64,000 nucleotides of DNA from Trypanosoma brucei (Eukaryota): NCBI GenBank assembly GCA_000002445.1, contig CP000071.1:384001-448000 (forward strand), given 5' to 3'. The position numbers were made by a program, and so were the translations under genes. Below the pieces are notes generated by a model that worked only from the letters and a program-made list of their open reading frames with translations, was not told the DNA's origin and made no database searches. Each line of letters starts with the position of its first letter. Within the stretch, counting starts at the first letter, position 1. Shown piece after piece: positions 1,805 to 62,030 of the stretch.

Positions 1805-3865
1805 TTAGGCAACGCCGCACTTACCCAGCGCTTGAAGTTCCACAACACGGCGCTTCAGTTTTACACATTCACCAGCCACGTTTAAAAGTTCCGACTGCAA
1901 GTTAGCCATAGACGCACGAAAAACTTGTATCACCTTGCAAAATATTTCATCCCTGCGGTTTCCCTCAGCATGCCATCCGTCAAGAGAGGAAACAAGCACC
2001 GTTTCCTGCTTATCAGATTGTGACAACGCTGCACCAACAGCGTCCATCCACTCAACCACTTTAGAAGTAAGAGGCAAAGATGCAGAGTTGCCACACGCCA
2101 CACCCTCAGCAACTTCATCATGGCTTCGCTGAGCCTCAGCCAATTGTGCCTTCAGTTGCTCCACCTCTTGCTGTAAGGCATGCATGGCCTCCTCCCTAGA
2201 CTCCATAACTTCACGACATTTTACCTCACTAGCCACAGCAACTTCATCATGGCTTCGCTGAGCCTCAGCCAATTGTGCCTTCAGTTGCTCCACTTCTTGC
2301 TGTAAGGCATGCATGGCCTCCTCCCTAGACTCCATAACTTCACGACATTTTACCTCACTAGCCACAGCAACTTCATCATGGCTTCGCTGAGCCTCAGCCA
2401 ATTGTGCCTTCAGTTGCTCCACCTCTTGCTGTAAGGCATGCATGGCCTCCTCCCTAGACTCCATAACTTCACGACATTTTACCTCACTAGCCACAGCAAC
2501 TTCATCATGGCTTCGCTGAGCCTCAGCCAATTGTGCCTTCAGTTGCTCCACTTCTTGCTGTAAGGCATGCATGGCCTCCTCCCTAGACTCCATAACTTCA
2601 CGACATTTTACCTCACTAGCCACAGCAACTTCATCATGGCTTCGCTGAGCCTCAGCCAATTGTGCCTTCAGTTGCTCCACCTCTTGCTGTAAGGCATGCA
2701 TGGCCTCCTCCCTAGACTCCATAACTTCACGACATTTTACCTCACTAGCCACAGCAACTTCATCATGGCTTCGCTGAGCCTCAGCCAATTGTGCCTTCAG
2801 TTGCTCCACCTCTTGCTGTAAGGCATGCATGGCCTCCTCCCTAGACTCCATAACTTCACGACATTTTACCTCACTAGCCACAGCAACTTCATCATGGCTT
2901 CGCTGAGCCTCAGCCAATTGTGCCTTCAGTTGCTCCACTTCTTGCTGTAAGGCATGCATGGCCTCCTCCCTAGACTCCATAACTTCACGACATTTTACCT
3001 CACTAGCCACAGCAACTTCATCATGGCTTCGCTGAGCCTCAGCCAATTGTGCCTTCAGTTGCTCCACTTCTTGCTGTAAGGCATGCATGGCCTCCTCCCT
3101 AGACTGGGTCTCCAGGTCCGAGTCTTGATACCGGGAAAGTTCATTCCGCAGATCCTGAATTGTTTTTCTGTCTTGCTCCACCACAGTTCGCACTCGATCC
3201 TGCCACTGCTCGACCTTTTCCTTCACTTCACGATCTATGCTTTCCCTTATGGCTTCGGCACTTGGACCTCCAGAACTTGCAGTGTATTGTTGCGCGGTTA
3301 TTTGCTGACTTTCTCGGAGGCGCTGAAGTTCGTTTTCCAGTTGATTAATACGGTTTTTATGGTTTTCACGCTCGAGTCTGTCATACTCTCTCAACTCCCT
3401 TACTCTCTCCTGAACAGAGGCCTCTAGCACCTTGGCTTGTGCGGCGACGATTCCATCCGACTGTGTGAGCACTGTGCTTCCTGTTTCCCTTAGCGTCTGA
3501 AACTCTCTTGTCTTTTCCTCCAACTGCTCACGTAAAGCCGTTATTAATTCCTCACTTCGACTCATATCCTGAGCAAATGTCACGCGCTCCTGCTCTATCT
3601 CTTGCTGCAATTGCAACAAGGAGTGTTGGAGCTGCGACACCTCAGTCGTTGTTACTTCGCCTGAATCCACGGCGGCTGCTGGGCACACCTTTTCATTAGA
3701 CGATTGATTGGTGATGTCCTTCACAAGCTCCTCCAGGTGGGCAATATACTGGGTTTTCTCACGGTTTGTTATGCTTTGTTTCTTGGCAAGTTCAATGAGT
3801 TCTTCCCTCGTCATCAATTCCAAGTCGACAGTGCGAGTGCGACGCGGTGCAAGAGGCGCAGACAT
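1805..3865 (-). CDS. Coiled-coil protein with ~8 tandem 43-aa repeats (SREEAMHALQQEVEQLKAQLAEAQRSHDEVAVASEVKCREVME); function unknown, possibly cytoskeletal/flagellar
   Basis: 686-aa ORF starting with a genuine ATG. A heptad-like, E/Q/L/A-rich central array sits between unique N- and C-terminal regions. The minus strand is pyrimidine-rich immediately upstream of the ATG (3866-4000). Confidence 0.8.
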   Translation of the reverse strand: MSAPLAPRRTRTVDLELMTREELIELAKKQSITNREKTQYIAHLEELVKDITNQSSNEKVCPAAAVDSGEVTTTEVSQLQHSLLQLQQEIEQERVTFAQDMSRSEELITALREQLEEKTREFQTLRETGSTVLTQSDGIVAAQAKVLEASVQERVRELREYDRLERENHKNRINQLENELQRLRESQQITAQQYTASSGGPSAEAIRESIDREVKEKVEQWQDRVRTVVEQDRKTIQDLRNELSRYQDSDLETQSREEAMHALQQEVEQLKAQLAEAQRSHDEVAVASEVKCREVMESREEAMHALQQEVEQLKAQLAEAQRSHDEVAVASEVKCREVMESREEAMHALQQEVEQLKAQLAEAQRSHDEVAVASEVKCREVMESREEAMHALQQEVEQLKAQLAEAQRSHDEVAVASEVKCREVMESREEAMHALQQEVEQLKAQLAEAQRSHDEVAVASEVKCREVMESREEAMHALQQEVEQLKAQLAEAQRSHDEVAVASEVKCREVMESREEAMHALQQEVEQLKAQLAEAQRSHDEVAVASEVKCREVMESREEAMHALQQEVEQLKAQLAEAQRSHDEVAEGVACGNSASLPLTSKVVEWMDAVGAALSQSDKQETVLVSSLDGWHAEGNRRDEIFCKVIQVFRASMANLQSELLNVAGECVKLKRRVVELQALGKCGVA
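2100..3105. repeat. Tandem array of ~8 copies of a 129-bp unit, internal to the CDS 1805..3865
   Basis: The motif tcatcatggcttcgctgagcctcagccaattgtgccttcagttgctccac(c/t)tcttgctgtaaggcatgcatggcctcctccctagactccataacttcacgacattttacctcactagccacagcaac recurs with a period of 129 nt. Copies differ only at one synonymous C/T position; the variant order across the eight units is C,T,C,T,C,C,T,T. Confidence 0.9.
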
Positions 3866-5675
3866 TCGTGCAAGCAGTTATTTGAGGGGGAAAAAAACAG
3901 CAAAATGAAACGTAAAGATCTCTTTGCTAATGCCTTTGGAATGAAAGAACGCGTGGAACCTTTACCAAGCACCGGTACAACTTTAAACACAATCTTTATT
4001 GCTAAGGGTTTTCGAGCCTTTAACTGTGCTCGCGAGTGCGTAATCCATTTTACATTACGTCGGACCAGCGGCGGGCGAGAAGCGACGATAACAAATGGGA
4101 AAATGCATGCTCTGAGTAGTCCACTTAAAGTGCAGAGGTGTCAACAGGTTCAGTCTCTTCAGGCATTCGGGGGGAAGGAAAGGGAAATTACTCATTAGAA
4201 CTCAGCAGTCTGTGAAGTACGAAAAAAAAGGGGGCCTTCCTCATCTTTTCTGTGCTTTGCCTCAGCGTTTTCTCGGCAATTAATGCCTAGAAAGTAATTA
4301 ATGTGGCGTCACACTGTACCACAACCCTAAGACCGTACCACCACTGCCACTGCGCCCTCTCTTAGAGGACCAAGGGTGAAACCACACCCATCACCGTCGC
4401 CAATACGCTGCGGTTGGCAGCAGCTGAAGTATTATTACCCTTATCCTTGCGTATGTTGTCCCGGGTTGCATGTACATCACCCTTCCCGGCTGGGATTGCG
4501 ACAAGAGAGAAACTAACTCTCTCCATTTGCAGCCGGAGGTCGAGCTTCACGAAGGCAGTAAGTGGTCTGCTACCGGGACGAGGACTCGTCGTAACTTCCC
4601 TCTGCCCATCATCGGGTAGAGCCAACTGCCGACTGTCACTGACGCGTGACCGCTTATTGGAACGGTACTCCGCACCATCCATGGACTGATGCCCCCCCCA
4701 AGGCGACAGCCGCCACAGTGAAGACTCGAGCCTCGGAGTCCAGTTCACCGCCGACGTGCGCCTGTAATAAAACAACAACCCCGTCCCTGGTGTTGCCATC
4801 GATGTTGTCGCTACGAGGACCACCACGAAGACTGAAATGGGCACCAGTTAACTGCAATGTTGTGCTCCCAACAGGGTATGACACCTCCACCTTCTTGGAG
4901 TGGGCGGCACATTCTGTAGGCGGGGAAGAGAGCTTATTCTTATTCGATGTATCCTTCTTAGATTCGGTGTGACCGGATGCGAAAATATTCTGTGGGGAGG
5001 CAATCGTTAACCGTGCCACGACAGTTCGCACCATCCAAACCGTGAAGGAAAACAAAGTGATCAAAGGAAGAACGGAATAGTCACAAGTCTCCGGTACTTC
5101 CTCCTCTTTCCCTAACAGTCTTTCTCTCTTTTGCACTTTCAACTTAATCCCTTTCCTCTTTTCTGTCGTCCGTCTACCCTCTCACACTTCAAGCGCCTTC
5201 CCTACTCTTGACCCACTATTCTCGTGGAAAGGCAGTAGATAATGGCAGCAGAAGCAGTAGCAAAGGTACGAAATTTGTACGGTGTTCGAATCAAAAGGTA
5301 AACACAAGAGGTGAAAATGCAACAGGAGGGCGTCAATGACCTGTACGTACCCCAGCTGGGCCCGGTGCCGGCTAGCTGCACCCTCAGTTATAAAATGTAG
5401 ACTCATCCTTTTACCTCACTTAGCCAAGACAAAAACGCACCTCTTATACTTAAATTTTCACGTCATGAATCCCTCCCCCACGGCACATCATACATAAACA
5501 CATGCCACCCGCGTTAGCCAACGTTCAGAATAACCTAATCCGTCACAGTATGGGCAAAAAAAGAAAAGGAAGCGGGAGCCGTCAATCACAGCACCTCTGG
5601 GAGAAGTGAAAGGGGGAACACGGTGGAGGAGCAGCGCTCCACTATCCGACATACCCACATGACTATTAGCGCGGG

Positions 5676-6227
5676 TTAATTTCCCTTCCCTTTCTTCTCC
5701 GCGTCGATGCGGCTCCTTTTATTGCCTCCATCGTTACCGTTTGCCTTCCCCTTTGAACTCTTGGGTTTCCCACCGTCTCCTTTGGGTTTCTCTCCCCCTC
5801 TTGACCGCCGCGATGCCATCTCCATGCCGTCACTGGAATCCTCTTCCTCCTCATCCCTATCCTCATCGCTGGAGTCTCCCTTGTCGGCGTTATATCGGTC
5901 TTCATCACTCTCGAAATACCCAGTTAGGTGGACCGTAGGACCTTCACCACTACAACCCACAGTTGAAGAGGGAACAAGAGTAAAGGAAACCTTCCGCGAG
6001 AAAATGTGATGCAGGGGAACGTAATATAATTCTCTGTCCGCGGAAAGGGTGCAAAGGGCTAACCGAGTCGGTAAATCATGGCTCTGCGCGTACAGTGTGA
6101 CGGCACCTGGCACAATGCTTGTGAGTGAACAGTGCGTCAACACCAAAGAGCTATCTGGTGGCATCGGTGGGGAAATGGCAACCTGGTCGGGCCGGAGCTC
6201 CAAGCCAAAGAAGCAGTGAAGCGACAT
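5676..6227 (-). CDS. Candidate small ORF (183 aa) with an acidic-then-basic C-terminal tail; it may equally be a purine-rich UTR artefact
   Basis: ATG-initiated ORF inside a 3.5-kb gap. The C-terminus reads ...YFESDEDRYNADKGDSSDEDRDEEEEDSSDGMEMASRRSRGGEKPKGDGGKPKSSKGKANGNDGGNKRSRIDAEKKGKGN. The region is purine-rich on the coding strand, a composition that often produces spurious K/E/G-rich ORFs. Confidence 0.2.
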   Translation of the reverse strand: MSLHCFFGLELRPDQVAISPPMPPDSSLVLTHCSLTSIVPGAVTLYAQSHDLPTRLALCTLSADRELYYVPLHHIFSRKVSFTLVPSSTVGCSGEGPTVHLTGYFESDEDRYNADKGDSSDEDRDEEEEDSSDGMEMASRRSRGGEKPKGDGGKPKSSKGKANGNDGGNKRSRIDAEKKGKGN

Positions 6228-7385: not shown

Positions 7386-9080
7386 TCACATTTGTGAGTT
7401 ATAGTTGGGACCACCACCGCCCTCGGGCACCGTCCAGTCGATATTCTGCGTGGGATCCTTGATGTCACACGCTTTGCAGTGTAAACAGTTCTGTGCGTTG
7501 ATTACCAGCTTTCCGTCCACAAATTCATACACTTTGGCGGGGCAGTACTTCCCCTCTGGGCCATCATAAAGAGAAAGGTTGACGTCAATTGGTACAGAGG
7601 CATCATGAAGTTGCAGATGCGCTGGTTGGTCAGCGTTGTGGTCCGTTCCACTCAAGTTGAGATTTGTCAAGAGGTCAAAAGTAATCTCGCCATCAGGCTT
7701 GGGGTACTCAATTTGCACGCACGAAGCCGCGGGTTTCAGGCTTTTGTGGTCAGGCTGGTGATGTCGCAGTGTCCACGGCTCCGCGCCGCGTGTGAGAAGG
7801 GTTGTTACGCCTGTATACAGCACGCCCAACAGGAAGTGACGGGCGAACGTCTGCCGCACGTTGCGCACCTGATACAACTCTTCGTATAACCAACTTTCCC
7901 TAAACCTCTCTTGGTAACTTTTGCAATCGACATGCACTAATTTCTCCCTGCCAGACACAAAAGCGTCGGCGTACACGGCCTCCGCGGCCAACATCCCAGA
8001 CTTCATGGCCGTGTGCGTGCCTTTTATCTTTGGTAAGTTAAGGAAACCTGCACAGTCGCCAACGAGCACACCGCCAGGAAAGTGTAACTGCGGCAGCGAA
8101 ACCAAGCCACCTTCAACAAGTGTTCGAGCACCGTAATGAAGCGGCCGACCGCCACGCAGTTGCGATGTTACCAACTCGTGAGTCTTCCACTTCTGAAACT
8201 CCATGTAGGGACGAATGTGAGGATTTTTGTAGTCCAAGCCTACAACAAACCCAAGGGAGACCAAACCATCGCCGTAGTGGTAGAGAAAGGACCCACCGTA
8301 CGTGTTGTCGTGGCCCTTATCTGTGAGTGGCCAACCTATTGTGTGCGAAACAGAACCAGGGCGATGGTTGCCCTCTGGAACCTCCCACACCTCTTTCACT
8401 CCAAGACCGTACGTTTGGAAATTCTGCTTCCCACGGAGGTTGAATATTTTCTCTAACTGCTTGGTGCAAGAACCACGGCATCCTTCTGCGAACACGGTTT
8501 GCTTGGCCCTAAAAATCATGCCAGGATCGTACCGTTCGGTTTTCTCACCCTTCTTATTGATTCCGACATCGTTAAGCTGTACACCTTCCACTGCCGTCAT
8601 AGTGCTGTTAAGCACAGGCCGGGCGGCGGCAAACCCCGAATACACCTCCACACCTAACTCCGTTGCTCGTTCAGACAGCCACCTGCACAGTGACCCAAGC
8701 GACATGATACGCGCATTGTGGTTTTGCAGTGTGGGTGGTATTATGGGGGACCTAAAGCTGCGTTTCTGGTCACGCAAATAATAAAAGTTGTCGCTCGTTA
8801 CGGTTGTCAGCGTCGGAAGATCAGTAGCGACTTCCCAATCAGGGATGAGCTCATCCAGCGACCGCATGTTTACGCAGGCACCAGAAATCGTATGCGCCCC
8901 AATTTCACTCCCCTTCTCAACAAGAGCGACACGAAAATCATCCCCTGCGACCCCACCGAGTTGCTTTAGTCGAATGGCTGTGGCCAGTCCCGCTGGGCCG
9001 CCTCCAACAACAACAACGTCGAACTCCTCAATCACTCGCTCCGCCACGGCGCAAAAACAACAACTTGTTCGACGAAGCAT
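7386..9080 (-). CDS. Electron-transfer flavoprotein:ubiquinone oxidoreductase (ETF-QO), mitochondrial
   Basis: 564 aa. N-terminal FAD/Rossmann motif DVVVVGGGPAGLATAIRLKQL. C-terminal 4Fe-4S ferredoxin-type motif CLHCKACDIKDPTQNIDWTVPEGGGGPNYN, typical of ETF-QO. Genuine ATG at 9080. Confidence 0.92.
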   Translation of the reverse strand: MLRRTSCCFCAVAERVIEEFDVVVVGGGPAGLATAIRLKQLGGVAGDDFRVALVEKGSEIGAHTISGACVNMRSLDELIPDWEVATDLPTLTTVTSDNFYYLRDQKRSFRSPIIPPTLQNHNARIMSLGSLCRWLSERATELGVEVYSGFAAARPVLNSTMTAVEGVQLNDVGINKKGEKTERYDPGMIFRAKQTVFAEGCRGSCTKQLEKIFNLRGKQNFQTYGLGVKEVWEVPEGNHRPGSVSHTIGWPLTDKGHDNTYGGSFLYHYGDGLVSLGFVVGLDYKNPHIRPYMEFQKWKTHELVTSQLRGGRPLHYGARTLVEGGLVSLPQLHFPGGVLVGDCAGFLNLPKIKGTHTAMKSGMLAAEAVYADAFVSGREKLVHVDCKSYQERFRESWLYEELYQVRNVRQTFARHFLLGVLYTGVTTLLTRGAEPWTLRHHQPDHKSLKPAASCVQIEYPKPDGEITFDLLTNLNLSGTDHNADQPAHLQLHDASVPIDVNLSLYDGPEGKYCPAKVYEFVDGKLVINAQNCLHCKACDIKDPTQNIDWTVPEGGGGPNYNSQM

Positions 9081-25378: not shown

Positions 25379-25608
25379 TGTCCCTCACTCTCTTGGGGCT
25401 TTACTTTTCCCGCCGTCTCCCTCTCTGAGACGGCAAAAGCGATGTGAATTTATCAACTAAGTCCTTCCCGAATATATCCAATCAAGCTCATACAAGACGC
25501 ACGGTTCTGCCACCCGCTGGAGGAGAGAAACTCGCTCCCTTATTTCTTCACCAAATCGCCCCACGCGTGTAAAATCACCACCTTGCCTTGTTTTTATCTC
25601 TCGCCTAT

Positions 25609-25633
25609 TTTATATATATATATATATATATAT
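25609..25633. repeat. (TA)n microsatellite
   Basis: tatatatatatatatatatatat. Confidence 0.9.
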
Positions 25634-28600
25634 GTAAGGGAGGGCTGACAGAACCCACCTTTATTTATGTATTTTTCTGTATTTTTATTTTATTTTATTT
25701 TTTTGGTTTTTGTTCCCTTCTCCTCCTGTGCTTCCTCTTGACTATAAGGGGCCTACTACCGTTACTGTGATGCAACTAAAATGAACTTAAGTAATATGTC
25801 TCGTGTATTTGTGTATGCTTTTTGTGTATTTATGTGCGTTTTCCTGAAAGAGGGAAAGCAGTTCCAAGTCCTTAGTTCCAACTATTTTACCCTCTATCAC
25901 CCCCCTACCCTTGTTAGCGATTGGAAAAATGGATAAAGTACAAAAAGAAAAAAGAAACAAAATAATAATCGTTTATTTCAGTTTGACACTATTCATATGT
26001 TTTTTCACCAGCCCTCGCCCACATAGGAAGAGCACTAGCAGTAGCAAAGTATGGTGAAAAGAGGGCCGGGGATATTAAAAGATTGGATGGGAAATAGCAA
26101 CAGGAGAATTTTAAAAAAAAAAAGAAACAAAAAAACAAAGAAAAAGGGGGAAAAAAACAACAAAATGACCCACAAAATCGCACACTGCGATTAGAGACCT
26201 GGATAGGGAAGAGGTAGAGAAGGAACGACAACAAAAAGAGCAGCGAAAAACAAAACAAAACGCAAACAACAGAAAGAGGGGGGATCTTGACAGACAAGCG
26301 TGTTTCCTTCACATCCGCGTTGCACTATACAATCATTATGATGATGATGATAATAATAATAATAATAATTGAAATGACAAATTTTAAAAGAATTTAACAG
26401 AAAAGAAAAAAAAGAAGAAGAGAGGAGAGAAAGCGGTAAAGCGCCGCCCAGACACACGCGCATGCGTTAGCCAAACACTGAAGTTAATTATATCAACAAG
26501 AATAGTCGCGGGATTGACAGAAACGCATGTACGCAAAAAAAAAAAAAAGGAAGCCGCCGTTTTTGTTCCTTTTTCTTTGGTCTTTTTTTTTTGTTGTTGT
26601 TTGTTTATTTGTTGGTTTGGTTTGGTTTGGTTGCTTCTCTATCCTTTATTCTTTTCTTTTTTAAAAAAAAAATCCTCTTTCGTATTTATCCCTCTTCTGT
26701 TTGGGTTCGCGGGGGGGAAGGGGGTTGGAGACGCCATGTGTTTCTTCATCCTCCACGCACCAAAAATATTTAAAAAAGAAAAAGAAAAATATGTAGATAC
26801 CAAAAATGAAAACGAAGTACATCCTCGCCAAAATAAAAAAAAAAGTGAAAACAAAAAGATAATAATAATAATAATAACGAATGAATGAATGATGCGCTGC
26901 AGCTGCAGAGGGGTAAACAGGGCCGCGTAACGGATGTCCGGTTTGGAAAAAAGAGAAAAGAGGAGATTTGATATTGATTATTTTTGCATTTTGTTTTGAT
27001 ACTACTTCAAATAAAATGGTGGTGGATAGTAAGAATCAGGAAGTAAAACAGAAAAAAGAGAACGGTACGAAAATAAATGAAGAAAGAAAAAAAAAAGTAA
27101 AACGAGGGAAAAACGCTCCCGTCAAACATCACCGACGTCATTAATAACAACAGCAACTTCAAATTTAAAATCCTTTAGTTTTCTCACGTTTACTTCCTCC
27201 TATTTAATTAATTTGACTTCCTTTAGTTTTCTGTTATTGTTGTTATTATTGTTTTTCCTATCTTCTCTCTCCCTTCTCGTGTTGTGATGACTAAATGGGC
27301 CCACCAGTACCAACAACAGCGGGGGGGAAATGAAAAAATCAACAACCATAAATAAAAAGGAGCAACAAACACAAATGCGACGCACAAAGCAACAACAACA
27401 ACAACAACAGAAAAAAATTAAAGTAAACAAAACACACACACACACACAAGAGGTACGGTTTTAAATTCATTTAATTTACATTCAAGCCTCCCCGGTTGTC
27501 CGGGGTCTGATTTCATGTGGTATTTCAGCGCTACTTCCATTCCCCTTTTTTTAAAAAAAAAAGATTTGTTCTCCTTTAACTTTATGCACCCGCCTCCTCT
27601 ATTTCACGCACAATGTCATACTTGCCAACTTCACATTCCGTTGTGGCACTACCATTGTTTCATTGTTGTTACCTTTTTTTTTCATTTTTTTCCTTTTTTT
27701 CGTTTTTGTAAGCCCGGCTTTACTTTCTCCGTCATTCAGATCTAAGTAATAATAATAATAATAAGTTGATTCGGCTCCCGTTTGTTCAATTTGGTTTTTC
27801 CCTCATTAATTCGCCCTTTTATCCCCTCCTTTCTTTTTGTTTTATTTTTTTTTTAAAGTCCCTTCTCCTCCGTTCGGCACCCCTTCCACAACAACAAAAA
27901 GGAAACACGAAAAAAAAAACTAAAAACAAAAACACGCCCTGCTTCAGAAGTGAAAAAAAAAAAGGTACGGGTCTATGAGTAAATACTCAATCAAATAGTT
28001 CATAGAAAACACACACACACACAACAAAACAAATATATAATCGTATACTTATTCGTATTTATATAACAAAAACAACCGACCAAAAAAAAAGAGAGCTACA
28101 ACGATCCGAAGGACATTCAACTACGGCAAATTGCACTCTTTTTCCGTTTTCGCTCTTCGAGTCATTACGTAACACATGTGGAAGTAAATCAAAAGAAAAA
28201 AAAACTAAACTAAACTAAAAATGGCGCAAATCAGGAAATGCGGCAGAGAAAAGGAAGAAGAAAAGAAAATCACTAAAAAGAGTTCATACAACAATGCCAT
28301 CATTTTCACCCCACCCGCCTGTCACTACAAACACATATTGGCAGAAGCGAAAAGATAATGGGGCGGCAAAAACGAATATGAAAATGAACTTAAGTCCAAT
28401 GGATGCATCAACACGGAAGCAGGCACAACGTAGAAACTTCAAAACAAGAAAGAAAACGAAAAAGGAAGAAGAGAACTTGTAAATCACTCCGGAACTTTTT
28501 TGTCATATCCCTTTTTTCTTTTTGTTTTCGTTTGCCCGCAAGGGGATGATGGGGAATAACATAAAAATAAAAGAAGAAAGTGTTTCCCACATATGTATAT

Positions 28601-30143
28601 GTATATATATATATATATCTACCCGCATCTCAAATGGCTCGGAAGCAACCCACTCACTGAAAGTAAGTACAAGGGATGAAAAGAACCACAAGGTAGATAA
28701 AAGAAAACAAACCGGATTTGGACGTATGAGGCACCGGTACCAGCAGCAAGACACAAATATCCGTTATTTTTTTTTTCAAAAAAAAAGGTAAAAGAAAGAA
28801 AGGTATATTGGGAAGGAAAAAAAAAAGACGAATTAAGACGAATGAAAATCTGGCGGAGGGGTTTCAGGGGAAACTGCAGGGTTAAACCCATTTTTCATTT
28901 CAGAAAAGAAAAGCAACCAGTCAATTGAGTGGGTCACCCTTCAGCTAGAAGAAGAATAGAGAAATCGACTAAAATCGAAAAGTAGGGAAGGAACATAAAC
29001 ACAACGAGATGCCCATCACCTTGCATCTCCGCACATCATAGGGAAGAAAAATGACGAGATCGCAACTAACAACGACAAGAAAACAAAACGCACACAGATA
29101 CAGGCGAATGAAAATGTATAAAAATGACATGAAAAGTTGCAAAAAAAAATGGGTAGAGCCCAGCAGAAATCAAATCCCCTTCGCCCGCGCCTCTTCCTTC
29201 GCCCTTCCTTCGCCTTAAACACCGTATAAATATGCACACAGACACATCCATCCATCCATCTATTCATACATACATACATACATGCACCTATACTATTATA
29301 TATTATATAATCGTGTGTATTTATCTTCCTCTTCCTCTTTTAGTGGTGGTTTTCGCTAACTTTATCTCATATCCAAATTATTCCTATCACCCTTTTCCCA
29401 TTCCACAGTCCCTTCACCCCTCCCCCTTGGACCCAATTAGCACATCAGCTTTCCTTCTCTACAAACATGCAACATTCGTGGGCCCTGCAGCAAATACTTG
29501 GCCATATCGCCCAGCTAAATTAGATTTTACTACTCTCCATTTATTGGTTTTAGCTCGTTCCTTCTTTCCCTCATTCCTCATCGCGCCTCCTCTTTTGTAT
29601 CCTTTCCTCTCCCCTCTATTTTATTATTTAGCCTTCGAGGGGATTCATCCATTTCGTTTCCGCCCACCCCTTCCTTCACACTTACTCCATCTATGTCGCA
29701 TCCTTCCCACTGATGCAAAGAGGTACAGGCGTTTATTCAAATGTTTTACTCACCTCCGAAACATAGCCGAGCAGGTAAACATATTCGTCCTATTGCACGC
29801 ACAAGCATATATATATATATATATATACATACACATGTACATATGTAGATGACTGCGTTTGGATGCGCACAAAACGTGAATACGGCCCACAGATTGCACG
29901 GTCATCTCGCTTTCCATCATGCGACATCCGTACATTGTTGGGGTCCTCAGAACCTCTATAACCTTGTGTTTTTTTTTCGCCTCTTTTTGTTCTTATTACA
30001 AGTGGTAGTTCCCTCCTCATCTATATTTGACCTCTTTCTCTCCTGTGCGAGCCTATCCTCAATCCGCCATCCTAACCTGTCCTCTGTGTCTCTTGCTCCA
30101 ACCGGATACTGGCGGAGCCGAGTCTCCTTATAATGCTACTCAC

Positions 30144-48136: not shown

Positions 48137-51100
48137 TCACGATACGGCTATAAAGAACCCCAAGCTGTCACCAAGGGTGTCCACCACAGGACCACTGGAC
48201 GCCAATGCTTTACGCCCACCTCCTCTGCCGCCCAGTGGTCTTTGCCCCACAGATCGCGGGGGTGTCGCGTTTAACTCCGACCGTTCACAAGCCGGTACTG
48301 TGACGTACAGTGGTAGTTCGAATAGGGGCTGCCAAACGCGGCTGGTTGCCTCGTCGGGCTTATCGTCGGGATTCAGGGGGTGACTCACAGCCCACTGTAG
48401 ATCTAGTCCAACCACCGGCACAGTGGCGACGGACCGTTTTACCACGTCGCAAACCTGAGGGGGTTCAGGTTCTGTCAAGAAAAGAACGCTATTACACATC
48501 GCACTGCCCTCCTGGCGTGGCTCAGAGCCCTTCTTCCCTGAACGCAGGTCCCACAGTACGCCACTCGGCTGTCGCGAAGGACAGTCTGTAAAATCGCTCT
48601 GATACCGAACGGCGATAACGATATCCATATCATGCTTGCTGGCACCTACCTCCTTGTTCCATCTCATTTCACATGGCTTCCAACCGGCCTGTATCGATAC
48701 CTCCCGCTCCAATTGCCGCGAGGGCGCAGCACCAGTGAGGAGGACGTCGTCGTGAAGGAGCATGTAGCGCCGTGTCACTACCAAAACCGCCTCAATGTGG
48801 CTCAGCAAATCACCCTTCCGCTCCAACGCATCTGCCAAGAGTATATTGAGCAGGAGCTTTGGATACTGCAACGCAGGCAGCCATACACTGAGAACGGACC
48901 CGGGCTGCCATCCCCTGAACTGCGCTGTCGCAACTCGCAGCCGTGAGGATAACTCTTTGTGCTGGGCGCGTTCCAATGCCCTGACAGTTTTCTCTCCATA
49001 GACCCCCTCCCACACAAGCAGTAACGATACAGCCGAATTTGACTCAAAGTCTTCATGGGGCTCCGTTTGAGAAGCACCATCTACCCCACCCTGTGAGCAT
49101 AATGGTCCATCTGAGGTGCTAAACAGCGGATCAGCCCTCGTAGAGAAAGGAACACCACAAAGGCTTCTCCGCAAGGCACTACTTGCCATGCTTCGGTATG
49201 TCACAATCGTGTGGTCGTCTCCACAAAGATGGAGGAAACTTTTGTCGGAACGACGCAGAGTCGCCATGAAGACCTCATCAGTTGGCTTCTCCCTGAGAAG
49301 CTCGTCCAGTGCAGTGCTGTAGCACAAACGCCCGTCATCCCTCAGCATCAACAGGGGACCACGCTCGTACAGCATGTTTTCAATTAGCAAACAACCTTGA
49401 TGTCTTTCGCTTCGAGATGTGTACACGAGGTAGGCCACTTTATTAAAGAGACGGTACAGCCGCTCACTAATTGACCTCCTCTGCAAGGTTGCGCTCTTCA
49501 GCTCCGTACTTGACACAGTGTGGGTTGCGGCGTGTAAAGTAGTGGATGGGTGCCTCTTGGATGACGGCTCCTCCTCCTGTGGGTCATCTAGCTGTTTGAG
49601 CGAAACGAGACGCAGGATGAGAAGAAGATCATCAGTGTTGATGTCCGTCCGATACAAATCAGTGAATACGTTGTCAAGTCCCCTATCCTCCACAAGAGCA
49701 CGCTGGACAGCACCCCCAGCACTGATTCCGGCGTGTAGCTCGAGGACATAGCCCAACGGCGTAACCATGGTGTTGCCCCGGTCGCCTCTCTTGCACGAGT
49801 CCAAATGACTGCAACTGACCCCCGATTTGGTACATTCCCTCTCAAGAAGAAGTGTCACACCCTCTCTTTTCCACGGTGGAGCAAACACCTTCCCCCCAAT
49901 GACGGAAAGCAACTGGTGCCGCGGTGACACCGAATCCACTACTACGGGAAAGCACCACTCCTGCATGGCGCGAACCACGTTATTCCGTACCATATTAGGG
50001 GCGCCCCTAACAGTGCAACACAGTACAACAGGTGTGCGTGTCGAGTGGCCACCACCCCGGAGTAGACCCCATATCCCGTACCGCCATAAGGCAGAGAACC
50101 TGCTTGAAATTGCTTGCAGGAATGACGCCTCCTCAGACACGCCAGCTGGCGGCACAAACACGGCCATAACGCAGTGGCCACGCACAACGTGGGTAGGAGG
50201 TTGTTGAAATGAATGACTGACATAACCCACAAGCTGATCCAAGTCCCTTACATTGGTTACGGTGAGGTACCGAAAGAAGAAACTAGCCGAGTTCGCACGC
50301 TGCCTAACATAACCGACCAATTCATGTGTGTTGGCTCCCTTCAGAAGCAATGGAATCGATGTGTTCCCGGAAAACTGCCACCATTCTTCACTATACCGCA
50401 GATTAGTGCACTGACTGTCAAGGGAGTCGTATATGGACAAACCCCCCTCTTCCGTGACTTTCTTCTTCACCGATGTGAAAAACGCGGCATAGAGGTCAGA
50501 AGCAGCCGCATCGCATGCCCTGTGGTTCAGCAACATCCACTGTTGAAAAAGGAAACGGATTAATTCTTCACCAGCTTTCAACACCCATGAAGTATTTGTA
50601 TCCTTAACGAAGAGCGTGCTCTCCAAACTCAGACCGCTCTCGGTGTCATCAAGCGTGGAGTTATCACGGGCAATACTATTTAGCAACGGGTCCATTGATG
50701 ATTCGTACAGGTTCCTTACTGTCTGCTTATCAGCAGCAATATTTTGCCGAGTGAGCAGCCGGTTCAGTACATCGTATTGTTGGGAAGTGAGAAAGGTGAT
50801 GTGGGAAGAATACAGCACACCCGAGTGAGCCAACATAAAGCCGCAGCTGTGCACCACGGTGGACAGAATATACCATGCGAAGATGCCACGCAGTTCCATG
50901 GGCCAGCCGGAAGCCATCACATCCACAAGGCTCTCAACGAAGTTTACCGTTGCATAAAAGTCTCTCTGTGGTGGTGGTAGCTTGTCAAAAGTTCCAGGTG
51001 ATATGCGACGCACGTAGGCACTCGACAAGTTTGTTGCACCCACAATGAACGGTTCCAGCATGCGCCATTCCCACAACCTTCCTAATATCTCTTTCTCTAT

Positions 51101-54100
51101 GACACGTACAGCCCGCTCCGCCGCTTGAATCCCCCGTTTAAGTCCCTCCCACAAAGAGGCCAGTGGTTTTTGCACGCTTTTGTTGTGCGCCTCGATGCGT
51201 AGCACAGTCATGTGGAGGGTGTGCAACTCGCGAAGAAGGAAATCAAGTCGTTCGAGCTCGCCGTTGTTGTTCCCAGCCAGCTCGTCAAGGTCACCGCTTA
51301 ACATCTCTCTGACCTCTGGTAGCGTTACACGAAAGGCACAGAGTGCGTCATTGTCTTGCTTGTCGCGCACACTAAAGACATTCTCCACCAATGGTCTTGC
51401 GTACGCCGTCGGGCACCCTAAGAGTATCGTGTGAACTCCCTCCTCTATCCGACGCGGACTGGGAATGTTGACGACCGTAGTGTAGCAACGCGTGGCAGCC
51501 TTAGCTTCTTCGTGTAGCATAACCGCAGGAGAAACACAAACCATGAGAAAACTGGGCTTTACAGGCACTTCCTGCCCAAATAGTGTGCACCTCAAGTTAC
51601 GCTTTTGCAGCGCCGCCTGCGGTAACGCCTTCAGCAACAACAGTAGAGGTCGCAAACGCTCCAGCACAGAAGGGGCATGCACGTCACATATGAGTAGACC
51701 GATCCCCGAACTAGCTGCCCTAACCACCTCGTCGCAGAAGTCCTTCTGCATTACGGAAACAACGACGCAGTCACCGCAGATGAACGCCAGACAGCGGCCC
51801 AAAACCTCTTCAAAAACGTTTGTTACACCGCAAAAGATCGGGCAGTTGGAAAAGATCTTCTGGAGCAATCCTGCGATGCATTGTCGTTCATAGGTAGAAC
51901 ATGCCGATAGAAGCAAACTTTCGACCGTCTCGTCGACGCTAGGAAACAGCAGTGAAGCTGCGGGGTCCTCCAAATCCGCCGGGGCCTGGATACCCCAATC
52001 ACAAAGAAGTGAGTACAGAGCTTTGTGGCAGGACCGTTGCACCTCAAGTGGTAAAGAGGCAAAAAACGCAAAATGAGCAGCAACCATAATAACGGCACCC
52101 TCACCCTTTGCCATCTCGTTGCACTGCGCCGCAGTTTTGCCTGGTGTATGGAACAAGGAAAACCTATCCAGAGCGTCCGTTATAAATTCAAGGGATTTTT
52201 GGCGCTTCGTCATATCCACTACCGTCGTTTCTAGGCCCTGGCTCTTCTCATCTACGTTGTTAACTTCCTGTTCAACACATTCAATTTTCCTTCTGGACTC
52301 GGAGACGCCACACCCCGCTTCGTTCTTTCTATCTTCAATAGTTGTGTACTCAAGACGCAAGCTGTCTAATTCCATCTGTTCAATCTGCAGCTCCTTCTTC
52401 ACCCGCACAGCCTCCATGACGGACAAAAGGTAATCCGACAAAGCATCAGCAAAGGGTGAAACATCGGTAAACCGTACACCGCGCAACGAGGAATGGACAC
52501 TCGCAAGGGACTCGTACGACAAACTCTCATGATCCAAATCTCGGAGCCGGGCGATAAATTTGGATGCTGTCATGATGCTTCTACCGCGGTCCCACACATC
52601 TCTTGTCGACGTTGCACGAAGATCCTCCCCCAACACCCTACAGACAGCCTTTACAAGCAACACGCCCTTGGGCGAAGGCAAGCTGCTTGCATATTGCCTG
52701 ATCTGCGCCGTCTTCATTGAACACAAACGAGCTTTTGTAGAGGAAAGACCATCGCTGATACTTTCCCTCTTTAGGCGAAGCGCGTTTTCCGCCGCGGTCA
52801 CCAGCGGCAACAAGTCACATGACTTCCTCTGCAAAAATTCCCACTCACTCTGATGCCGTGTGGCGCACTCCTTGGACCTCTCCAACCTAGCCACCAGCTC
52901 CCCACGGTGCTGGACAACGGTCACCTTCGTCTCCTCCGCCTCTTTACTTTTGTTGGCGTACTCCTGCATTTTTGTGGGAATGGCGTTGAACAGATCGTCA
53001 ACTCTAAGGGACTGAGAGACACAATGGCATATCCTAAACAAAGTCCCTCTAAGACGGTTAGCTAGTGTGGCGAACTCCTGCAACTGCTCAACAGAAATCT
53101 CGGTGTTTGTTCGTAGACAAAAAAATATGTCACATAGAAGCTGAGAGTAGGGACGTCCCAGTAGCGTCTCCGTATCCATAGGAACTCCCAAAAAGCAGGG
53201 TATGGACTCCACAGGTGCATCCTTTCCACAACCTTCTCCCCCTGGCGGTACATCCGCACTTTCGGCCCTCCCCGTTTCTGGTACGACAAATGTCGCCTTC
53301 TCGCTGCGGATCACCACATCGACATGTTCTCTCAGCATATCCGGGGCGTGCAGCACCACGGGAAGCATTTGCAGTACGAAAGGAATCACAGTGCCCAGAC
53401 GCCTCATTTCCTCAAAGCTAACAAAATGTGCTACAATACTCAAACGGGAGGAAATGCGTTCCCGCAACTGCACCTCTTCCGCAGGAGTGAGTTTCCCACT
53501 TTGGCGTTGTATGCCCCGCCGTCCGTGTAATAGGTACAGCTGCTCTTCAACAGAAAACAGTTGCCTAACATTACCACCGCGCAGTGTGTAATAAAGAAGA
53601 CTCAGTGGCCAAACCAGTGTTAGCACCTCATTAGGAACAAACACCACCATGCGACTCCCGCTACGGCAGGTGCCTTGCAGGATTTCAATGAGTTCTCGAG
53701 TAAACGAATTCTTCGCATCCGGAGCAGCAAAATCAGACAGCAATGACCTCAAGTTCACGCCCCTTCCGGCGGCCCACACGTGCAGTGCTCGACGGATGCC
53801 GATGCCGTAGGCCCCAACAAGAGCAACATGAGAGCCTTCCTGTCTCAAACAATGGTGCACATCTGATATCAACGAAACCGTCCAATGTGGGGTACAATTC
53901 ACATGCGGCGCCCCCCCAACGGCTGCCTGTTGCTGTGCCTCCTTTGTGGACGGCGATTCCATACGCGACTTGCCCGTCGATATATAAGGGGATTCACTAC
54001 GGATCTCATCGACAAGGGCAGGCGGCATCATCACGTCGTGCTTCTCCAGCCATTTCCTGATGACGTCGTGTCCCACAGATGGATACTCAAGGCTGTTCAA

Positions 54101-60811: not shown

Positions 60812-61050
60812 ACTATACAATCCCCTTATAACTTATGAATACTAGAACCCTCCACAAAAATAATAATTAATTCAAAAAAAAATACGGGTGCCCGCCGCGA
60901 TGGGGTTACAAACCGAAGTACTCCAAGGAAGACCGTTCGTTCAAGGAAACACGTGGAACGTTAATACGTTATGAACGAACATACAAGTCTAAACCAACGG
61001 TCAGAACGCAGTTGAGATTTGTCGTATAACAAAAGAGAGTAAAAGAAACA

Positions 61051-61512
61051 TTAGCTCCGTAGCTTGTTGAAGTCGAATCTGTGCTCAGCGCCTTGTTTCA
61101 ACTGCTCAGTTACGAACTGTAACCACGCAAGCTGGTTAACTCCCTCCTCGCAGTGGTGCGCGCTGATTCGCTTTAGTTCGTACTCATAGTCCTCCATCAT
61201 CGTGCAAATACGACTGCGCATGAGCATCCCGCGACATGTGTACAGTATTCCATAGAGCACAACACCCATACTAATAGCAGGGGGGAGGGGCCGTGTGTAG
61301 TAGACACTGTTCTTAAATATGTGACGTGGACCCCAGAGTCTGAACACCAGCATAACACTGGACGTTGTGAAGGTTACGCACCCCACAAGATAATACCACG
61401 CCCTGCTCTGATGACGGGCCAACTGTTCCACCCGGTCGGCAACGTGGTGCCTCTGGCTTTGGGAAATCTCCGTAACATACTGTGAAAACTCCTGACCAAC
61501 CTTGGACGACAT
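61051..61512 (-). CDS. Small hypothetical membrane protein (153 aa, ~2 predicted TM helices); first gene of the minus-strand polycistron
   Basis: The ORF-track ORF (61051..61572, GTG start) translates straight through a polypyrimidine tract. On the coding strand the sequence is ttttcttctttctttctttctacctttctttctttcAGtaATGTCGTCC, so MSSKVGQEF... at 61512 is the start that makes sense of the splice signal. Hydrophobic segments YYLVGCVTFTTSSVMLVF and AISMGVVLYGILYT. Confidence 0.5.
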   Translation of the reverse strand: MSSKVGQEFSQYVTEISQSQRHHVADRVEQLARHQSRAWYYLVGCVTFTTSSVMLVFRLWGPRHIFKNSVYYTRPLPPAISMGVVLYGILYTCRGMLMRSRICTMMEDYEYELKRISAHHCEEGVNQLAWLQFVTEQLKQGAEHRFDFNKLRS

Positions 61513-61514
61513 TA

Positions 61515-61553
61515 CTGAAAGAAAGAAAGGTAGAAAGAAAGAAAGAAGAAAAT
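61515..61553 (-). promoter_or_regulatory. Polypyrimidine tract + AG: predicted spliced-leader trans-splice acceptor for the 61051..61512 gene
   Basis: 36-nt pure C/T run on the minus strand (plus-strand aaagaaagaaaggtagaaagaaagaaagaagaaaa), ending in cAG 2 nt upstream of the ATG. Confidence 0.5.
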
Positions 61554-61946
61554 GCATCAAACCGGGCGACACACACAGTAGCGGAGATCAATCCCACGCG
61601 GGGAACCTCCTCGTTTTCAGGAGTCATACCATCACGCGAGGGGGTGCCCCGTATCGAGCCGGACCCCAAAGGGAAACTCGGAAATGCTGCGGAGGAAGCC
61701 AGGGACTCCGGGGTCCGCGGAGTCTGGACACCGTCGCCGACAGCCGAGTCTTCCACTACGGGCAAGACGACGGCGACCCCTACCACCGGCAGCCGCACCG
61801 CGCCGGCGATACAGTTGCGCGCTCACAGCACCACTGTAGGGGTGCCTCGCCCGTGTAGCCACAACCAGAGAGAAAGGGCAGCGGGGAGCCGACACAACTG
61901 CAGAAGGCTCTCGTCGTCAGAAAGTTCAACAGTGAAATGTAGAAGT
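61554..61946. promoter_or_regulatory. Divergent strand-switch region: GC-rich spacer between the minus-strand and plus-strand polycistrons; putative RNA Pol II transcription start region
   Basis: Gene orientation flips here: minus-strand genes lie below 61512 and a plus-strand gene begins at 62031. The ~400-bp spacer is conspicuously GC-rich (gcggggaacctcc..., ggggtgccccg..., ccggggtccgcggagtctggacaccgtcgccgacagccgag..., cgcaccgcgccggcg...), unlike the AT/homopolymer-rich intergenic DNA elsewhere in the window. Overlapping ORFs in several frames on both strands are typical of GC-rich non-coding DNA. Confidence 0.55.
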
Positions 61947-61969
61947 GCCTTCTCTCTTCTCTTCTTGTA
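61947..61969 (+). promoter_or_regulatory. Polypyrimidine tract + AG: predicted trans-splice acceptor for the F-box-like gene
   Basis: ccttctctcttctcttcttgtAG about 60 nt upstream of the ATG at 62031. Confidence 0.45.
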
Positions 61970-62030
61970 GCCGTTCAATCCAAGGAATAGTAAGGGCACA
62001 AGGCACATTTTAGTTGGAGCGCGAAATAGC

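What the first reader, a model, noticed from the sequence alone, without database searches (positions are those of the whole stretch)
2100..3105. Near-perfect 8 × 129-bp (43-aa) tandem repeat inside a coiled-coil protein; copy number may be under-assembled
Eight head-to-tail copies of a 129-bp unit encode SREEAMHALQQEVEQLKAQLAEAQRSHDEVAVASEVKCREVME. They are identical except for one synonymous C/T site, whose variants are arranged C,T,C,T,C,C,T,T along the array. Such homogeneity implies recent expansion or ongoing concerted evolution. Arrays of identical units in the 100 to 150-bp range are routinely collapsed in short-read assemblies, so the true protein could be considerably longer. The repeat is heptad-compatible and charged, which points to a long α-helical coiled-coil rod. 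By inference, comparable repetitive proteins in kinetoplastids are usually cytoskeletal or flagellar and are often strongly immunogenic.
Basis: seen in the sequence. Interest (0 to 1): 0.5.

Follow-up and report, generated by a model that had tools for sequence, protein, structure and literature searches.

The report
Variable repeat in trypanosome helical protein
The repeat is real: an in-frame 129-base array that lengthens a helical rod in an uncharacterised Trypanosoma brucei protein. It is kept uniform within each species and varies in copy number between species and strains, which is a familiar pattern in trypanosomes and not a new kind of feature.

Summary
The array spans 2107-3105 on the minus strand, inside a 686-aa ORF (1805-3865). 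It holds 7 full 129-bp (43-aa) units plus a 94-nt partial eighth unit.

The protein is identical to T. b. brucei TREU927 XP_846958/Q57VN3, annotated 'hypothetical protein, conserved'. From its position I infer it is Tb927.8.1210. This reference chromosome came from Sanger clone walking, not short reads.

The array is not a brucei-only novelty. Orthologues in T. cruzi, T. c. marinkellei, T. rangeli, T. theileri and T. melophagium carry a 43-aa array in the same register with the same end points. T. grayi has a 42-aa version. T. congolense has one copy.

Units are at least 99% identical within a genome but only 33-70% identical between species, which indicates concerted evolution. Copy number of the unit's core motif varies: 8 in TREU927, 5 in T. 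b. gambiense, 2 or 3 in T. cruzi strains and 7 in T. melophagium.

Four draft assemblies break or have gaps exactly at this array. Under-assembly in TREU927 therefore cannot be excluded, but nothing here demonstrates it.

AlphaFold predicts continuous helix through the array. Heptad phase slips by one residue per unit. The protein's function and location remain unknown. This is a new member of a known kind, comparable to the NUP-1, BRCA2 BRC and ClpGM6 repeats.

The parts
1805..3865 (-). Complete CDS of 686 aa plus stop. Identical to T. b. brucei TREU927 XP_846958.1 / Q57VN3, 'hypothetical protein, conserved'. Inferred gene id Tb927.8.1210.
   Evidence: ORF list and translation. Exact-sequence look-up. 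The gene id is inferred from position: a Tb927.8.1230 primer matches at 5880-5900, the frameshifted pseudogene Tb927.8.1220 lies at 4365-5034, and a Ca-ATPase lies at 2-958.
2107..3105 (-). In-frame 129-bp tandem array of 7.7 copies, covering aa 255-586. It is predicted to be continuous alpha-helix with no Pro or Gly.
2201..3103 (-). Seven complete 129-nt / 43-aa units with identical protein sequence.
2107..2200 (-). Eighth, truncated unit (94 nt, 31 aa). The array ends at the equivalent point in the T. cruzi, T. c. marinkellei, T. theileri, T. melophagium and T. grayi orthologues.
2165..3068 (-). The single variable site (unit nt 36, GAA/GAG, synonymous), at 2165, 2294, 2423, 2552, 2681, 2810, 2939 and 3068. 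+ strand order is C,T,C,T,C,C,T,T.
3701..3844 (-). Family-defining N-terminal motif (aa 8-55): RTRxVDLxxMxREELIEIAKKQxxxIREKxxRIxxLEELVxxxTG. It holds most of the invariant columns of the kinetoplastid family and is a confident helix at 20-52.
   Evidence: Alignments A2 and A3. AlphaFold pLDDT 88-93.
3128..3256 (-). Conserved 'W motif' (aa 204-246; invariant W221, R224, I236, L239), immediately upstream of the array and in the same predicted helix.
1811..1957 (-). Conserved C-terminal helix (aa 637-685; invariant L656, E666).

Best explanation
The feature is an in-frame 129-bp coding minisatellite inside a single-copy, syntenic gene. That gene encodes an acidic (pI 4.9), almost entirely alpha-helical protein conserved across Kinetoplastea.

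DNA level. The array is an old feature of the Trypanosoma orthologues. Repeated unequal exchange, gene conversion or replication slippage between the head-to-tail units keeps them nearly identical within a genome, while the unit sequence drifts between species. This is concerted evolution. The same processes add and remove whole units, so copy number differs between species, subspecies and strains. Because 129 is a multiple of 3, every gain or loss keeps the reading frame.

Protein level. Each unit adds 43 residues, about 6.4 nm of helix, to the C-terminal end of the fourth long helix. The array therefore forms a rod of variable length, about 49 nm in TREU927. It sits between the conserved N-terminal part (N-terminal motif plus W motifs) and the conserved C-terminal helix.

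I infer that the protein is a coiled-coil spacer or tether whose conserved ends bind partners and whose reach is set by the unit number.

Shown: the array anatomy, the protein identity, the orthology, the shared register, the within- versus between-species identities, the copy-number differences and the helix prediction.

Inferred: the recombination mechanism, the oligomeric coiled-coil state and the spacer function.
For: Anatomy and identity.

Orthologues. An exhaustive profile search finds only kinetoplastid relatives, 22 hits in all. These include a prokinetoplastid transcript, P0018.

Conserved synteny. The order NPL-like gene, small ORF, this gene is seen in DAL972, T. congolense, T. c. 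marinkellei and T. grayi.

Shared repeat architecture:
- Same 43-aa period, register and array ends in T. brucei, T. c. marinkellei, T. rangeli and T. theileri, and in T. cruzi and T. melophagium.
- T. grayi has a 126-bp period.

Identity within versus between species:
- Within-genome DNA identity is 99% in T. brucei, T. c. marinkellei and T. grayi.
- Between-species unit identity is 14/43 to 30/43 and tracks phylogeny.

Copy number, counted as core motifs: 8 in TREU927, 5 in DAL972, 1 in T. congolense, 3 and 2 in two T. cruzi strains on contigs over 600 kb, and 7 in T. melophagium.

DAL972 is an independent witness. Its array carries its own synonymous variants at unit nt 3, 81 and 114, so it is not a copy of the TREU927 array.

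Selection. All 4 variable sites in the two arrays are synonymous; P is about 0.014 for random transitions. The flanks of the same gene show 4 non-synonymous and 1 synonymous difference.

Structure:
- There is no Pro or Gly in 332 aa, and a/d occupancy reaches 0.88 in the first half of each unit.
- AlphaFold gives helices 203-367 and 378-579 through the array.
- In the single-copy T. congolense protein, AlphaFold gives five long helices with the repeat segment at the end of helix 4, mean pLDDT 80.6.
- PDB profile hits are all canonical coiled coils: BICD2, SMC, dynein stalk, GCN4/M protein and myosin.

Published parallels for the same evolutionary pattern: NUP-1 (PMC3313915) and the BRCA2 BRC array (PMC3553974).
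Against: - No experimental or database information on location, partners or phenotype was found, so the spacer/tether role is inference only.
- The heptad signal is weak in the last 18 residues or so of the unit. The 3.58-residue harmonic is only modestly above shuffles (858 of 20,000), and it is not the strongest harmonic.
- The array has net charge of about -5 per unit, which does not favour a simple parallel homodimer.
- AlphaFold was run on a monomer only, with low pTM (0.21 and 0.28), so the oligomeric state is untested.
- T. congolense, the closest outgroup examined, has one copy. The ancestral-array reading therefore requires a secondary loss or a collapsed draft assembly there.
- The TREU927 copy number rests on one Sanger-era haplotype.
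Confidence: 0.7

Rival explanations
1. The reference under-counts the array. The true TREU927 allele, or the other allele, has more than 7.7 units, and the protein is longer than 686 aa.
For: - The array (999 bp) is longer than a single capillary read.
- The variant string AAGGAGAG has a repeated 3-mer, GAG. Extra (A,G) unit pairs at the 3' end could therefore collapse without leaving a trace.
- The same reference collapsed the ClpGM6 repeats (PMC4121973), and T. cruzi H49 repeats defeated a Sanger assembly (PMC3214072).
- Four other Trypanosoma assemblies break or have gaps here.
- Chromosome 8 was sequenced by clone walking, so only one haplotype is represented.
Against: - The sequence is contiguous and finished.
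- All 4-unit variant words are unique, so reads of about 520 nt or more order the units unambiguously.
- Comparable lengths are assembled intact elsewhere. T. melophagium has 7 motifs on a 498-kb contig. DAL972 has 4.7 units, 612 bp, which would fit in one read.
- No read-level data were available to me.
Confidence: 0.18
2. The arrays arose independently, and recently, in each lineage from a single-copy segment like that of T. congolense. Under this reading there was no ancestral array and no long-term concerted evolution.
For: - T. congolense has one copy.
- Leishmaniinae have two copies with different periods (36-79 aa) or none.
- T. grayi has a period of 42 aa rather than 43.
- The BRCA2 BRC array is regarded as a recent brucei expansion.
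Against: Six Trypanosoma taxa share the same 43-aa period. Their units align in one register without gaps, and the arrays share the same start point and the same truncation point of the last unit. Identical breakpoints arising repeatedly is much less parsimonious.
Confidence: 0.12
3. The repeat region is not a structural rod. It acts mainly as a repetitive B-cell antigen or immune decoy, or is functionally neutral 'tolerated' repeat DNA.
For: - Tandem-repeat proteins of trypanosomatids are often immunodominant, for example GM6 and H49 (PMC3808341, PMC3214072).
Against: - Only synonymous variation occurs within the arrays of two subspecies, while the flanks accumulate non-synonymous changes. 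This argues for constraint on the unit's protein sequence.
- The array is retained in non-pathogenic and insect-transmitted relatives.
- No signal peptide or surface feature was noted, and no serology data exist.
Confidence: 0.08

Closest known systems
NUP-1, the lamin-like coiled-coil nucleoskeletal protein of trypanosomes (DuBois et al. 2012, PMC3313915)
   Same: - One syntenic orthologue per trypanosomatid genome.
- A central block of near-perfect helical repeats flanked by non-repeat helical ends.
- Repeats nearly identical within a species but diverged between species.
- Repeat number varies between species.
   Different: - NUP-1 has 144-aa units, 17 copies and is over 400 kDa. This protein has 43-aa units, 7.7 copies and is 78 kDa.
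- There is no sign of homology. All relatives found are 77-738 aa.
- NUP-1 has a demonstrated nuclear-periphery location and function. This protein has none known.
T. brucei BRCA2 BRC-repeat array (Hartley & McCulloch 2008; Trenaman et al. 2013, PMC3553974)
   Same: - Tandem array of mostly identical units in a T. brucei protein.
- Far more copies than in relatives: up to 15 in T. brucei, against 3 in T. congolense, 1 in T. vivax and 2 in T. cruzi and L. major.
- Copy number has functional consequences there.
   Different: - BRC units are RAD51-binding motifs, not rod segments.
- That expansion is described as recent and brucei-specific. The array here is shared in register across the genus.
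ClpGM6 / T. cruzi H49 FAZ calpain-like proteins with 68-aa repeats (PMC4121973, PMC3214072)
   Same: - Near-perfect in-frame repeats in a kinetoplastid structural protein.
- The repeats defeat genome assembly: collapsed in TREU927, and flanked by N regions in CL Brener.
- The repeats are antigenic.
   Different: - Those arrays are much larger (at least 55 units).
- They sit between calpain-like domains and have a known FAZ location.
- This gene is contiguous in the reference and has no calpain domain.
Coding minisatellites in coiled-coil rods generally, for example streptococcal M proteins (from general knowledge)
   Same: In-frame units encode an alpha-helical rod. Unit number changes by recombination or slippage and alters rod length. 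PDB profile hits include a GCN4/M-protein chimera.
   Different: This is a different kingdom. There is no surface exposure or selection by host immunity shown here, and the similarity is compositional only.

Membership tests
Concertedly evolving intragenic repeat arrays of trypanosomatid structural proteins (NUP-1-type pattern) | Head-to-tail, in-frame, near-identical units within one gene | tested here: met
   Period 129 = 3 x 43, 7.7 copies, one synonymous difference
Concertedly evolving intragenic repeat arrays of trypanosomatid structural proteins (NUP-1-type pattern) | Units nearly identical within a species but diverged between species | tested here: met
   99% DNA identity within T. brucei, T. 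c. marinkellei and T. grayi. 33-70% aa identity between species; 68/129 nt between T. brucei and T. c. marinkellei.
Concertedly evolving intragenic repeat arrays of trypanosomatid structural proteins (NUP-1-type pattern) | Copy number differs between species and strains | tested here: met
   Core motifs number 8, 5, 1, 3, 2 and 7. DAL972 is exactly 3 units shorter and carries its own variants.
Concertedly evolving intragenic repeat arrays of trypanosomatid structural proteins (NUP-1-type pattern) | Single syntenic orthologue per genome | tested here: met
   Same neighbours in DAL972, T. congolense, T. c. marinkellei and T. grayi. One hit per species in the exhaustive search, apart from split gene models.
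NUP-1 protein family (homology) | Detectable sequence similarity to NUP-1 orthologues (over 3000 aa, 144-aa repeats) | tested here: not met
   The profile search of 1.84 billion representatives returned only proteins of 77-738 aa. The unit length is 43 aa, not 144.
Two-stranded alpha-helical coiled coil | Uninterrupted alpha-helix without helix breakers | tested here: met
   No Pro or Gly in aa 255-586. AlphaFold gives helix 203-367 and 378-579.
Two-stranded alpha-helical coiled coil | Continuous heptad (a/d) hydrophobic periodicity | tested here: inconclusive
   a/d occupancy is 0.88 in the first 25 aa or so of each unit and about 0.5 in the rest. Register shifts +1 per unit because 43 = 42+1. 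The 3.58-residue harmonic was reached by 4% of shuffles. No dedicated coiled-coil predictor was available.
Two-stranded alpha-helical coiled coil | Oligomerisation of the helices | not testable with these tools
   Only monomer AlphaFold was possible (pTM 0.21 and 0.28).
Kinetoplast-associated protein (KAP)-like (a UniRef name on some Leishmania orthologues) | Small, strongly basic Lys/Ala-rich DNA-binding protein (from general knowledge of KAPs) | tested here: not met
   The protein has pI 4.87, with 138 D+E against 85 K+R. The name appears only as an automatic label.
Pfam HU-CCDC81_bac_2 / Pox_A_type_inc / Flg_hook (hits above cut-off) | A genuine domain-length match to the profile | tested here: not met
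   - Scores reach the cut-off only by summing 7-8 short partial matches to the identical units, for example profile positions 13-38 of 70.
- Non-repeat parts and orthologues give nothing above cut-off.
- PF28337 NNF2_middle is marked 'faint'.
Tandem-repeat B-cell antigens of trypanosomatids | Recognition of the repeat by infection sera | not testable with these tools
   No serological data were found for this protein.

The most novel reading that the evidence does not exclude
The array works as a genetically tunable molecular ruler. The number of 6.4-nm units sets the reach of a kinetoplastid-specific tether between two cellular structures. On this reading, the 3-unit difference (about 19 nm) between T. 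b. brucei TREU927 and T. b. gambiense DAL972, and the range of 1 to 8 core motifs across trypanosomes, has a structural consequence. As a by-product, the locus would be a useful VNTR marker for strain or subspecies typing and a possible repeat antigen for serodiagnosis.
Probability: 0.12. Interest if true: 0.5.

Novelty: new member of a known kind. Interest (0 to 1): 0.25.

Why it matters
The finding has three practical uses.

1. It flags an uncharacterised, kinetoplastid-wide helical protein (Q57VN3, probably Tb927.8.1210) whose length differs between the reference T. b. brucei and human-infective T. b. gambiense.
2. It gives a clean, small example of concerted evolution of a coding array across a whole genus.
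3. It marks a locus where draft assemblies routinely break. Gene models there (T. theileri, T. rangeli, T. grayi, T. equiperdum) are truncated or split and should not be trusted.

It does not reveal a new mechanism or a new class of element.

Tried and rejected
**Searches that gave nothing useful**
- Pfam on the full protein gave above-threshold hits (HU-CCDC81_bac_2, Pox_A_type_inc, Flg_hook, ASPP2 RA, UDG). I rejected these as summed partial matches to eight identical helical units. The non-repeat parts and the orthologues give nothing.
- The precomputed PF28337 turned out to be NNF2_middle, marked 'faint'.
- The PDB sequence and profile searches found only generic coiled coils and no T. brucei cryo-EM chain.
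- Foldseek of the T. congolense model against the PDB found nothing with E below 0.3.
- Rfam found no hits in the window.

**Literature**
- Full-text searches found no paper for Q57VN3, XP_846958, the peptide, Tb927.8.1210 or the orthologue ids.
- The supplements held as text for TrypTag (journal and bioRxiv versions) and for hyperLOPIT do not contain the gene. They also lack its neighbours, so this absence is uninformative.

**Other attempts**
- An exact-protein look-up for other assemblies carrying the 686-aa product found none.
- The first whole-protein homology search was swamped by repeat words and gave 2 hits. One of them, P0002, is an unrelated metagenomic coiled coil.
- I considered a single-alpha-helix (SAH) domain and rejected it. 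Only 12% of residues are K+R, and the net charge is -5 per unit.
- I considered an LC8-type TQT motif at the N-terminus (TQTVD in one distant homologue) but did not test it.
Full report
**1. The observation**

Tandem Repeats Finder reports a single array at 2107-3105: period 129, 7.7 copies, 99% matches, no indels, score 1970. No other tandem repeat with score 80 or more exists in the 64-kb window.

The array lies on the minus strand inside an ATG-to-stop ORF, 1805-3865, of 686 aa. In coding orientation there are seven complete 129-nt units at 3103-2201. An eighth unit at 2200-2107 is identical for 94 nt (31 aa) before diverging into unique C-terminal sequence.

The protein units are identical: SREEAMHALQQEVEQLKAQLAEAQRSHDEVAVASEVKCREVME. 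The only DNA difference is GAA/GAG at unit nt 36. On the + strand this reads C,T,C,T,C,C,T,T at 2165, 2294, 2423, 2552, 2681, 2810, 2939 and 3068.

**2. What the gene is**

The 686-aa product is an exact match to T. brucei brucei TREU927 XP_846958.1 / AAZ12892.1 / Q57VN3. It is annotated 'hypothetical protein, conserved' and sits on a 2,481,190-bp record, which I take from the Tb927.8 gene ids nearby to be chromosome 8.

All large ORFs except the last one in the window are on the minus strand, as expected for a polycistronic unit. The neighbours are:
- a P-type Ca-ATPase N-terminus at 2-958;
- an ETF-QO gene at 7386-9080;
- Sel1-repeat, CLP1-like, PH-like and mitochondrial carrier genes further on.

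A published qPCR primer for Tb927.8.1230 matches at 5880-5900, inside the 183-aa ORF 5676-6227. Between that gene and ours lies an ORF broken by a 1-nt indel at a poly-C run, relative to the intact 223-aa gene of T. b. gambiense. This fits the annotation 'Tb927.8.1220, hypothetical protein, conserved (pseudogene)'. By position our gene is therefore most likely Tb927.8.1210. This is an inference, not a look-up.

No paper in the searchable library mentions that id, the accessions, the peptide or the orthologue ids.

**3. Relatives**

The first whole-protein search was saturated by repeat words. It did return the T. b. gambiense DAL972 orthologue, P0001, of 557 aa. That is exactly 129 aa, or 3 units, shorter.

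Using the non-repeat N-terminus I found T. congolense TcIL3000_8_830, of 374 aa and 34-39% identity. It has only one copy of the repeated segment.

A profile of these sequences, searched exhaustively against 1.84 billion representatives, gave 22 hits with E at or below 0.001. Those whose cluster names were looked up are T. cruzi marinkellei, T. theileri, T. rangeli, T. grayi, Novymonas, Leptomonas, Leishmania, Porcisia and the prokinetoplastid Apiculatamorpha. Every source name is 'hypothetical'. A further search added T. cruzi strains and T. melophagium.

The family shares three features:
- an N-terminal motif, RTRxVDLxxMxREELIEIAKKQxxxIREK...;
- two to four 'W(K/Q)E(K/R)V...D..I..L' motifs;
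- a C-terminal helix.

Synteny (NPL-like gene, small ORF, this gene) holds in DAL972, T. congolense, T. c. marinkellei and T. grayi.

**4. The array is ancestral and evolves in concert**

T. brucei, T. c. marinkellei, T. cruzi, T. rangeli, T. theileri and T. melophagium all have a 43-aa period. The units align without gaps in one register. The arrays start at the same place and end with a unit truncated at the same point. T. grayi has a 126-bp (42-aa) period.

Within a genome the units are 99% identical at the DNA level in T. brucei, T. c. marinkellei and T. grayi. Between species the unit identity is 14/43 to 30/43 and follows phylogeny:
- cruzi-rangeli 30/43;
- theileri-grayi 26/42;
- brucei against the others, 14/43 to 20/43.

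At the nucleotide level T. brucei against T. c. marinkellei is 68/129. This is the signature of concerted evolution, not of one recent expansion.

Leishmaniinae have two copies with other periods, or none.

**5. Copy number varies**

Core-motif counts are:

| Genome | Core motifs |
|---|---|
| TREU927 | 8 |
| DAL972 | 5 |
| T. congolense | 1 |
| T. cruzi ECC02 | 3 |
| T. cruzi Brazil A4 | 2 |
| T. c. marinkellei | 3 |
| T. melophagium | 7 |

The two T. cruzi proteins and the T. melophagium protein sit on contigs of 498-616 kb.

The DAL972 locus (L002) has no N. It carries its own synonymous variants: unit nt 3 T/C, nt 81 T/C, nt 114 T/C, and G at nt 36 in every unit. It is therefore an independent read of a different array and not a copy of the TREU927 template.

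All four variable sites seen in the two arrays are synonymous. If transitions fell at random, P would be about 0.014. The non-repeat flanks of the same gene differ by 4 non-synonymous and 1 synonymous codon changes. This suggests the unit's protein sequence is constrained.

**6. Is the TREU927 array under-assembled?**

TREU927 chromosomes other than 1 and 9-11 were produced by clone walking with capillary reads. DAL972 was sequenced by 8x capillary shotgun (PMC2854126).

The worry is nevertheless reasonable, for four reasons:
- The T. equiperdum OVI contig CZPT02001285 (1347 bp) begins at window position 2164, inside the last unit, leaving an 80-aa gene fragment.
- The T. theileri gene is split into two 'partial' models, the T. 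rangeli gene lies on two contigs, and T. grayi has an N gap inside the array.
- TREU927 itself collapsed the much larger ClpGM6 array (PMC4121973).
- H49 repeats defeated the Sanger assembly of T. cruzi (PMC3214072).

Internal logic points the other way but is not conclusive. The variant string AAGGAGAG has unique 4-unit words, so reads of about 520 nt or more order the units unambiguously. However, its repeated 3-mer GAG means extra (A,G) unit pairs could collapse without leaving a trace.

No reads were available to me. I put under-assembly at roughly 0.18. The unsequenced second allele may also differ in length.

**7. Structure**

- The array has no Pro or Gly in 332 residues. It is acidic, with 10 D/E against 5 K/R per unit, and the whole protein has pI 4.87.
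- A simple a/d scan gives 0.88 hydrophobic occupancy over the first 25 residues or so of each unit and about 0.5 over the rest.
- The best register advances by one per unit, because 43 = 6x7+1.
- The 3.58-residue harmonic is strong but is reached by 4% of shuffles.
- AlphaFold2 with the orthologue alignment gives an almost all-helical model: helices 20-52, 73-128, 137-193, 203-367, 378-579, 600-629 and 637-685, mean pLDDT 68.5, pTM 0.21. The break at 367-378 falls within one unit of a run of identical units.
- The single-copy T. congolense protein gives five long helices, mean pLDDT 80.6. The repeat segment lies at the C-terminal end of helix 4, just before a Gly-Pro break.
- Profile hits in the PDB are all classical coiled coils. 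Foldseek finds nothing significant.

'Long helical rod' is therefore supported. 'Regular heptad coiled coil' is only partly supported. Oligomerisation is untested. At about 0.1485 nm per residue, one unit is about 6.4 nm and the array about 49 nm.

**8. Mechanism proposed**

At the DNA level, unequal exchange, gene conversion or slippage between identical 129-bp units homogenises them and changes their number. The in-frame period makes every change viable.

At the protein level, the array is a length-variable rod between conserved end modules. I infer a spacer or tether role. Only the anatomy, the evolution and the helix prediction are shown. The function is inference.

**9. Comparison with known cases**

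[quoted passage not shown] It also matches the T. brucei BRCA2 BRC array (PMC3553974) and ClpGM6/H49.

The protein is not homologous to NUP-1, because all relatives found are 77-738 aa. It is not KAP-like, because it is acidic. The Pfam hits are artefacts of summing weak matches over identical units.

**10. Verdict**

This is a real, correctly described feature in an uncharacterised but conserved protein, and a new member of a well-known kind. Interest is modest at 0.25. What this analysis adds is the demonstration that the array is genus-wide and concertedly evolving, the copy-number difference between subspecies, and a list of assemblies that fail at this locus.

Noticed in passing
window 4365-5034 (-), indel near the poly-C run at 4693-4700: This ORF is broken by a 1-nt indel relative to the intact 223-aa gene of T. 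b. gambiense DAL972 (L002 2835-3506). It fits 'Tb927.8.1220 ... (pseudogene)', which a published table lists as highly expressed and polysome-enriched in stumpy forms (PMC3694164). It could be a homopolymer sequencing error or a real strain-specific frameshift.
   Followed up: partly
window 5676-6227 (-): This 183-aa ORF is Tb927.8.1230, anchored by a published qPCR primer at 5880-5900. It is reported as a nucleolar nucleoplasmin-like protein that co-purifies with TbCul-D (PMC12816148). An NPL-like gene is syntenic in DAL972, T. congolense, T. c. marinkellei and T. grayi.
   Followed up: partly
window 3824-3844 (-), aa 8-14; P0022 residues 5-11: The invariant N-terminal motif R-T-[RH]-[TVI]-V-D-L reads V-T-Q-T-V-D-L in one distant homologue. 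It resembles a dynein light chain LC8 'TQT' binding motif. This is speculative and was not tested.
   Followed up: no
window 25400-30100: This is a stretch of about 4.7 kb with no long ORF and low G+C (0.36-0.39, against about 0.5 elsewhere). It lies between two large minus-strand genes. Its nature (long UTRs, a degenerate retroelement or something else) was not examined.
   Followed up: no
window 61000-64000: The only large + strand ORF (62031-63095) lies here, and GC skew reverses sign. This is probably a divergent strand-switch region at the start of the minus-strand polycistron.
   Followed up: no
window 48137-60820 (-): A very large ORF of 4227 aa (TTG-delimited in the mechanical list). 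It was not analysed.
   Followed up: no
L005 2779-2822 (T. grayi JMRU01000632.1); the T. theileri gene pair TM35_000271580/590; T. rangeli TraAM80_07340 and TraAM80_09430: Public gene models of the orthologue are split or truncated at the repeat. T. grayi has an N gap inside the array. T. theileri has two adjacent 'partial' genes. T. rangeli has the two halves on different contigs. The annotated lengths in those genomes are therefore unreliable.
   Followed up: yes
P0035 vs P0036 (T. cruzi strains); P0037 (T. melophagium): Two T. cruzi strains on contigs over 600 kb differ by one unit (559 vs 515 aa). T. melophagium has 7 core motifs, and its units differ by K/Q and D/N substitutions. Homogenisation is therefore not always perfect at the protein level.
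   Followed up: partly
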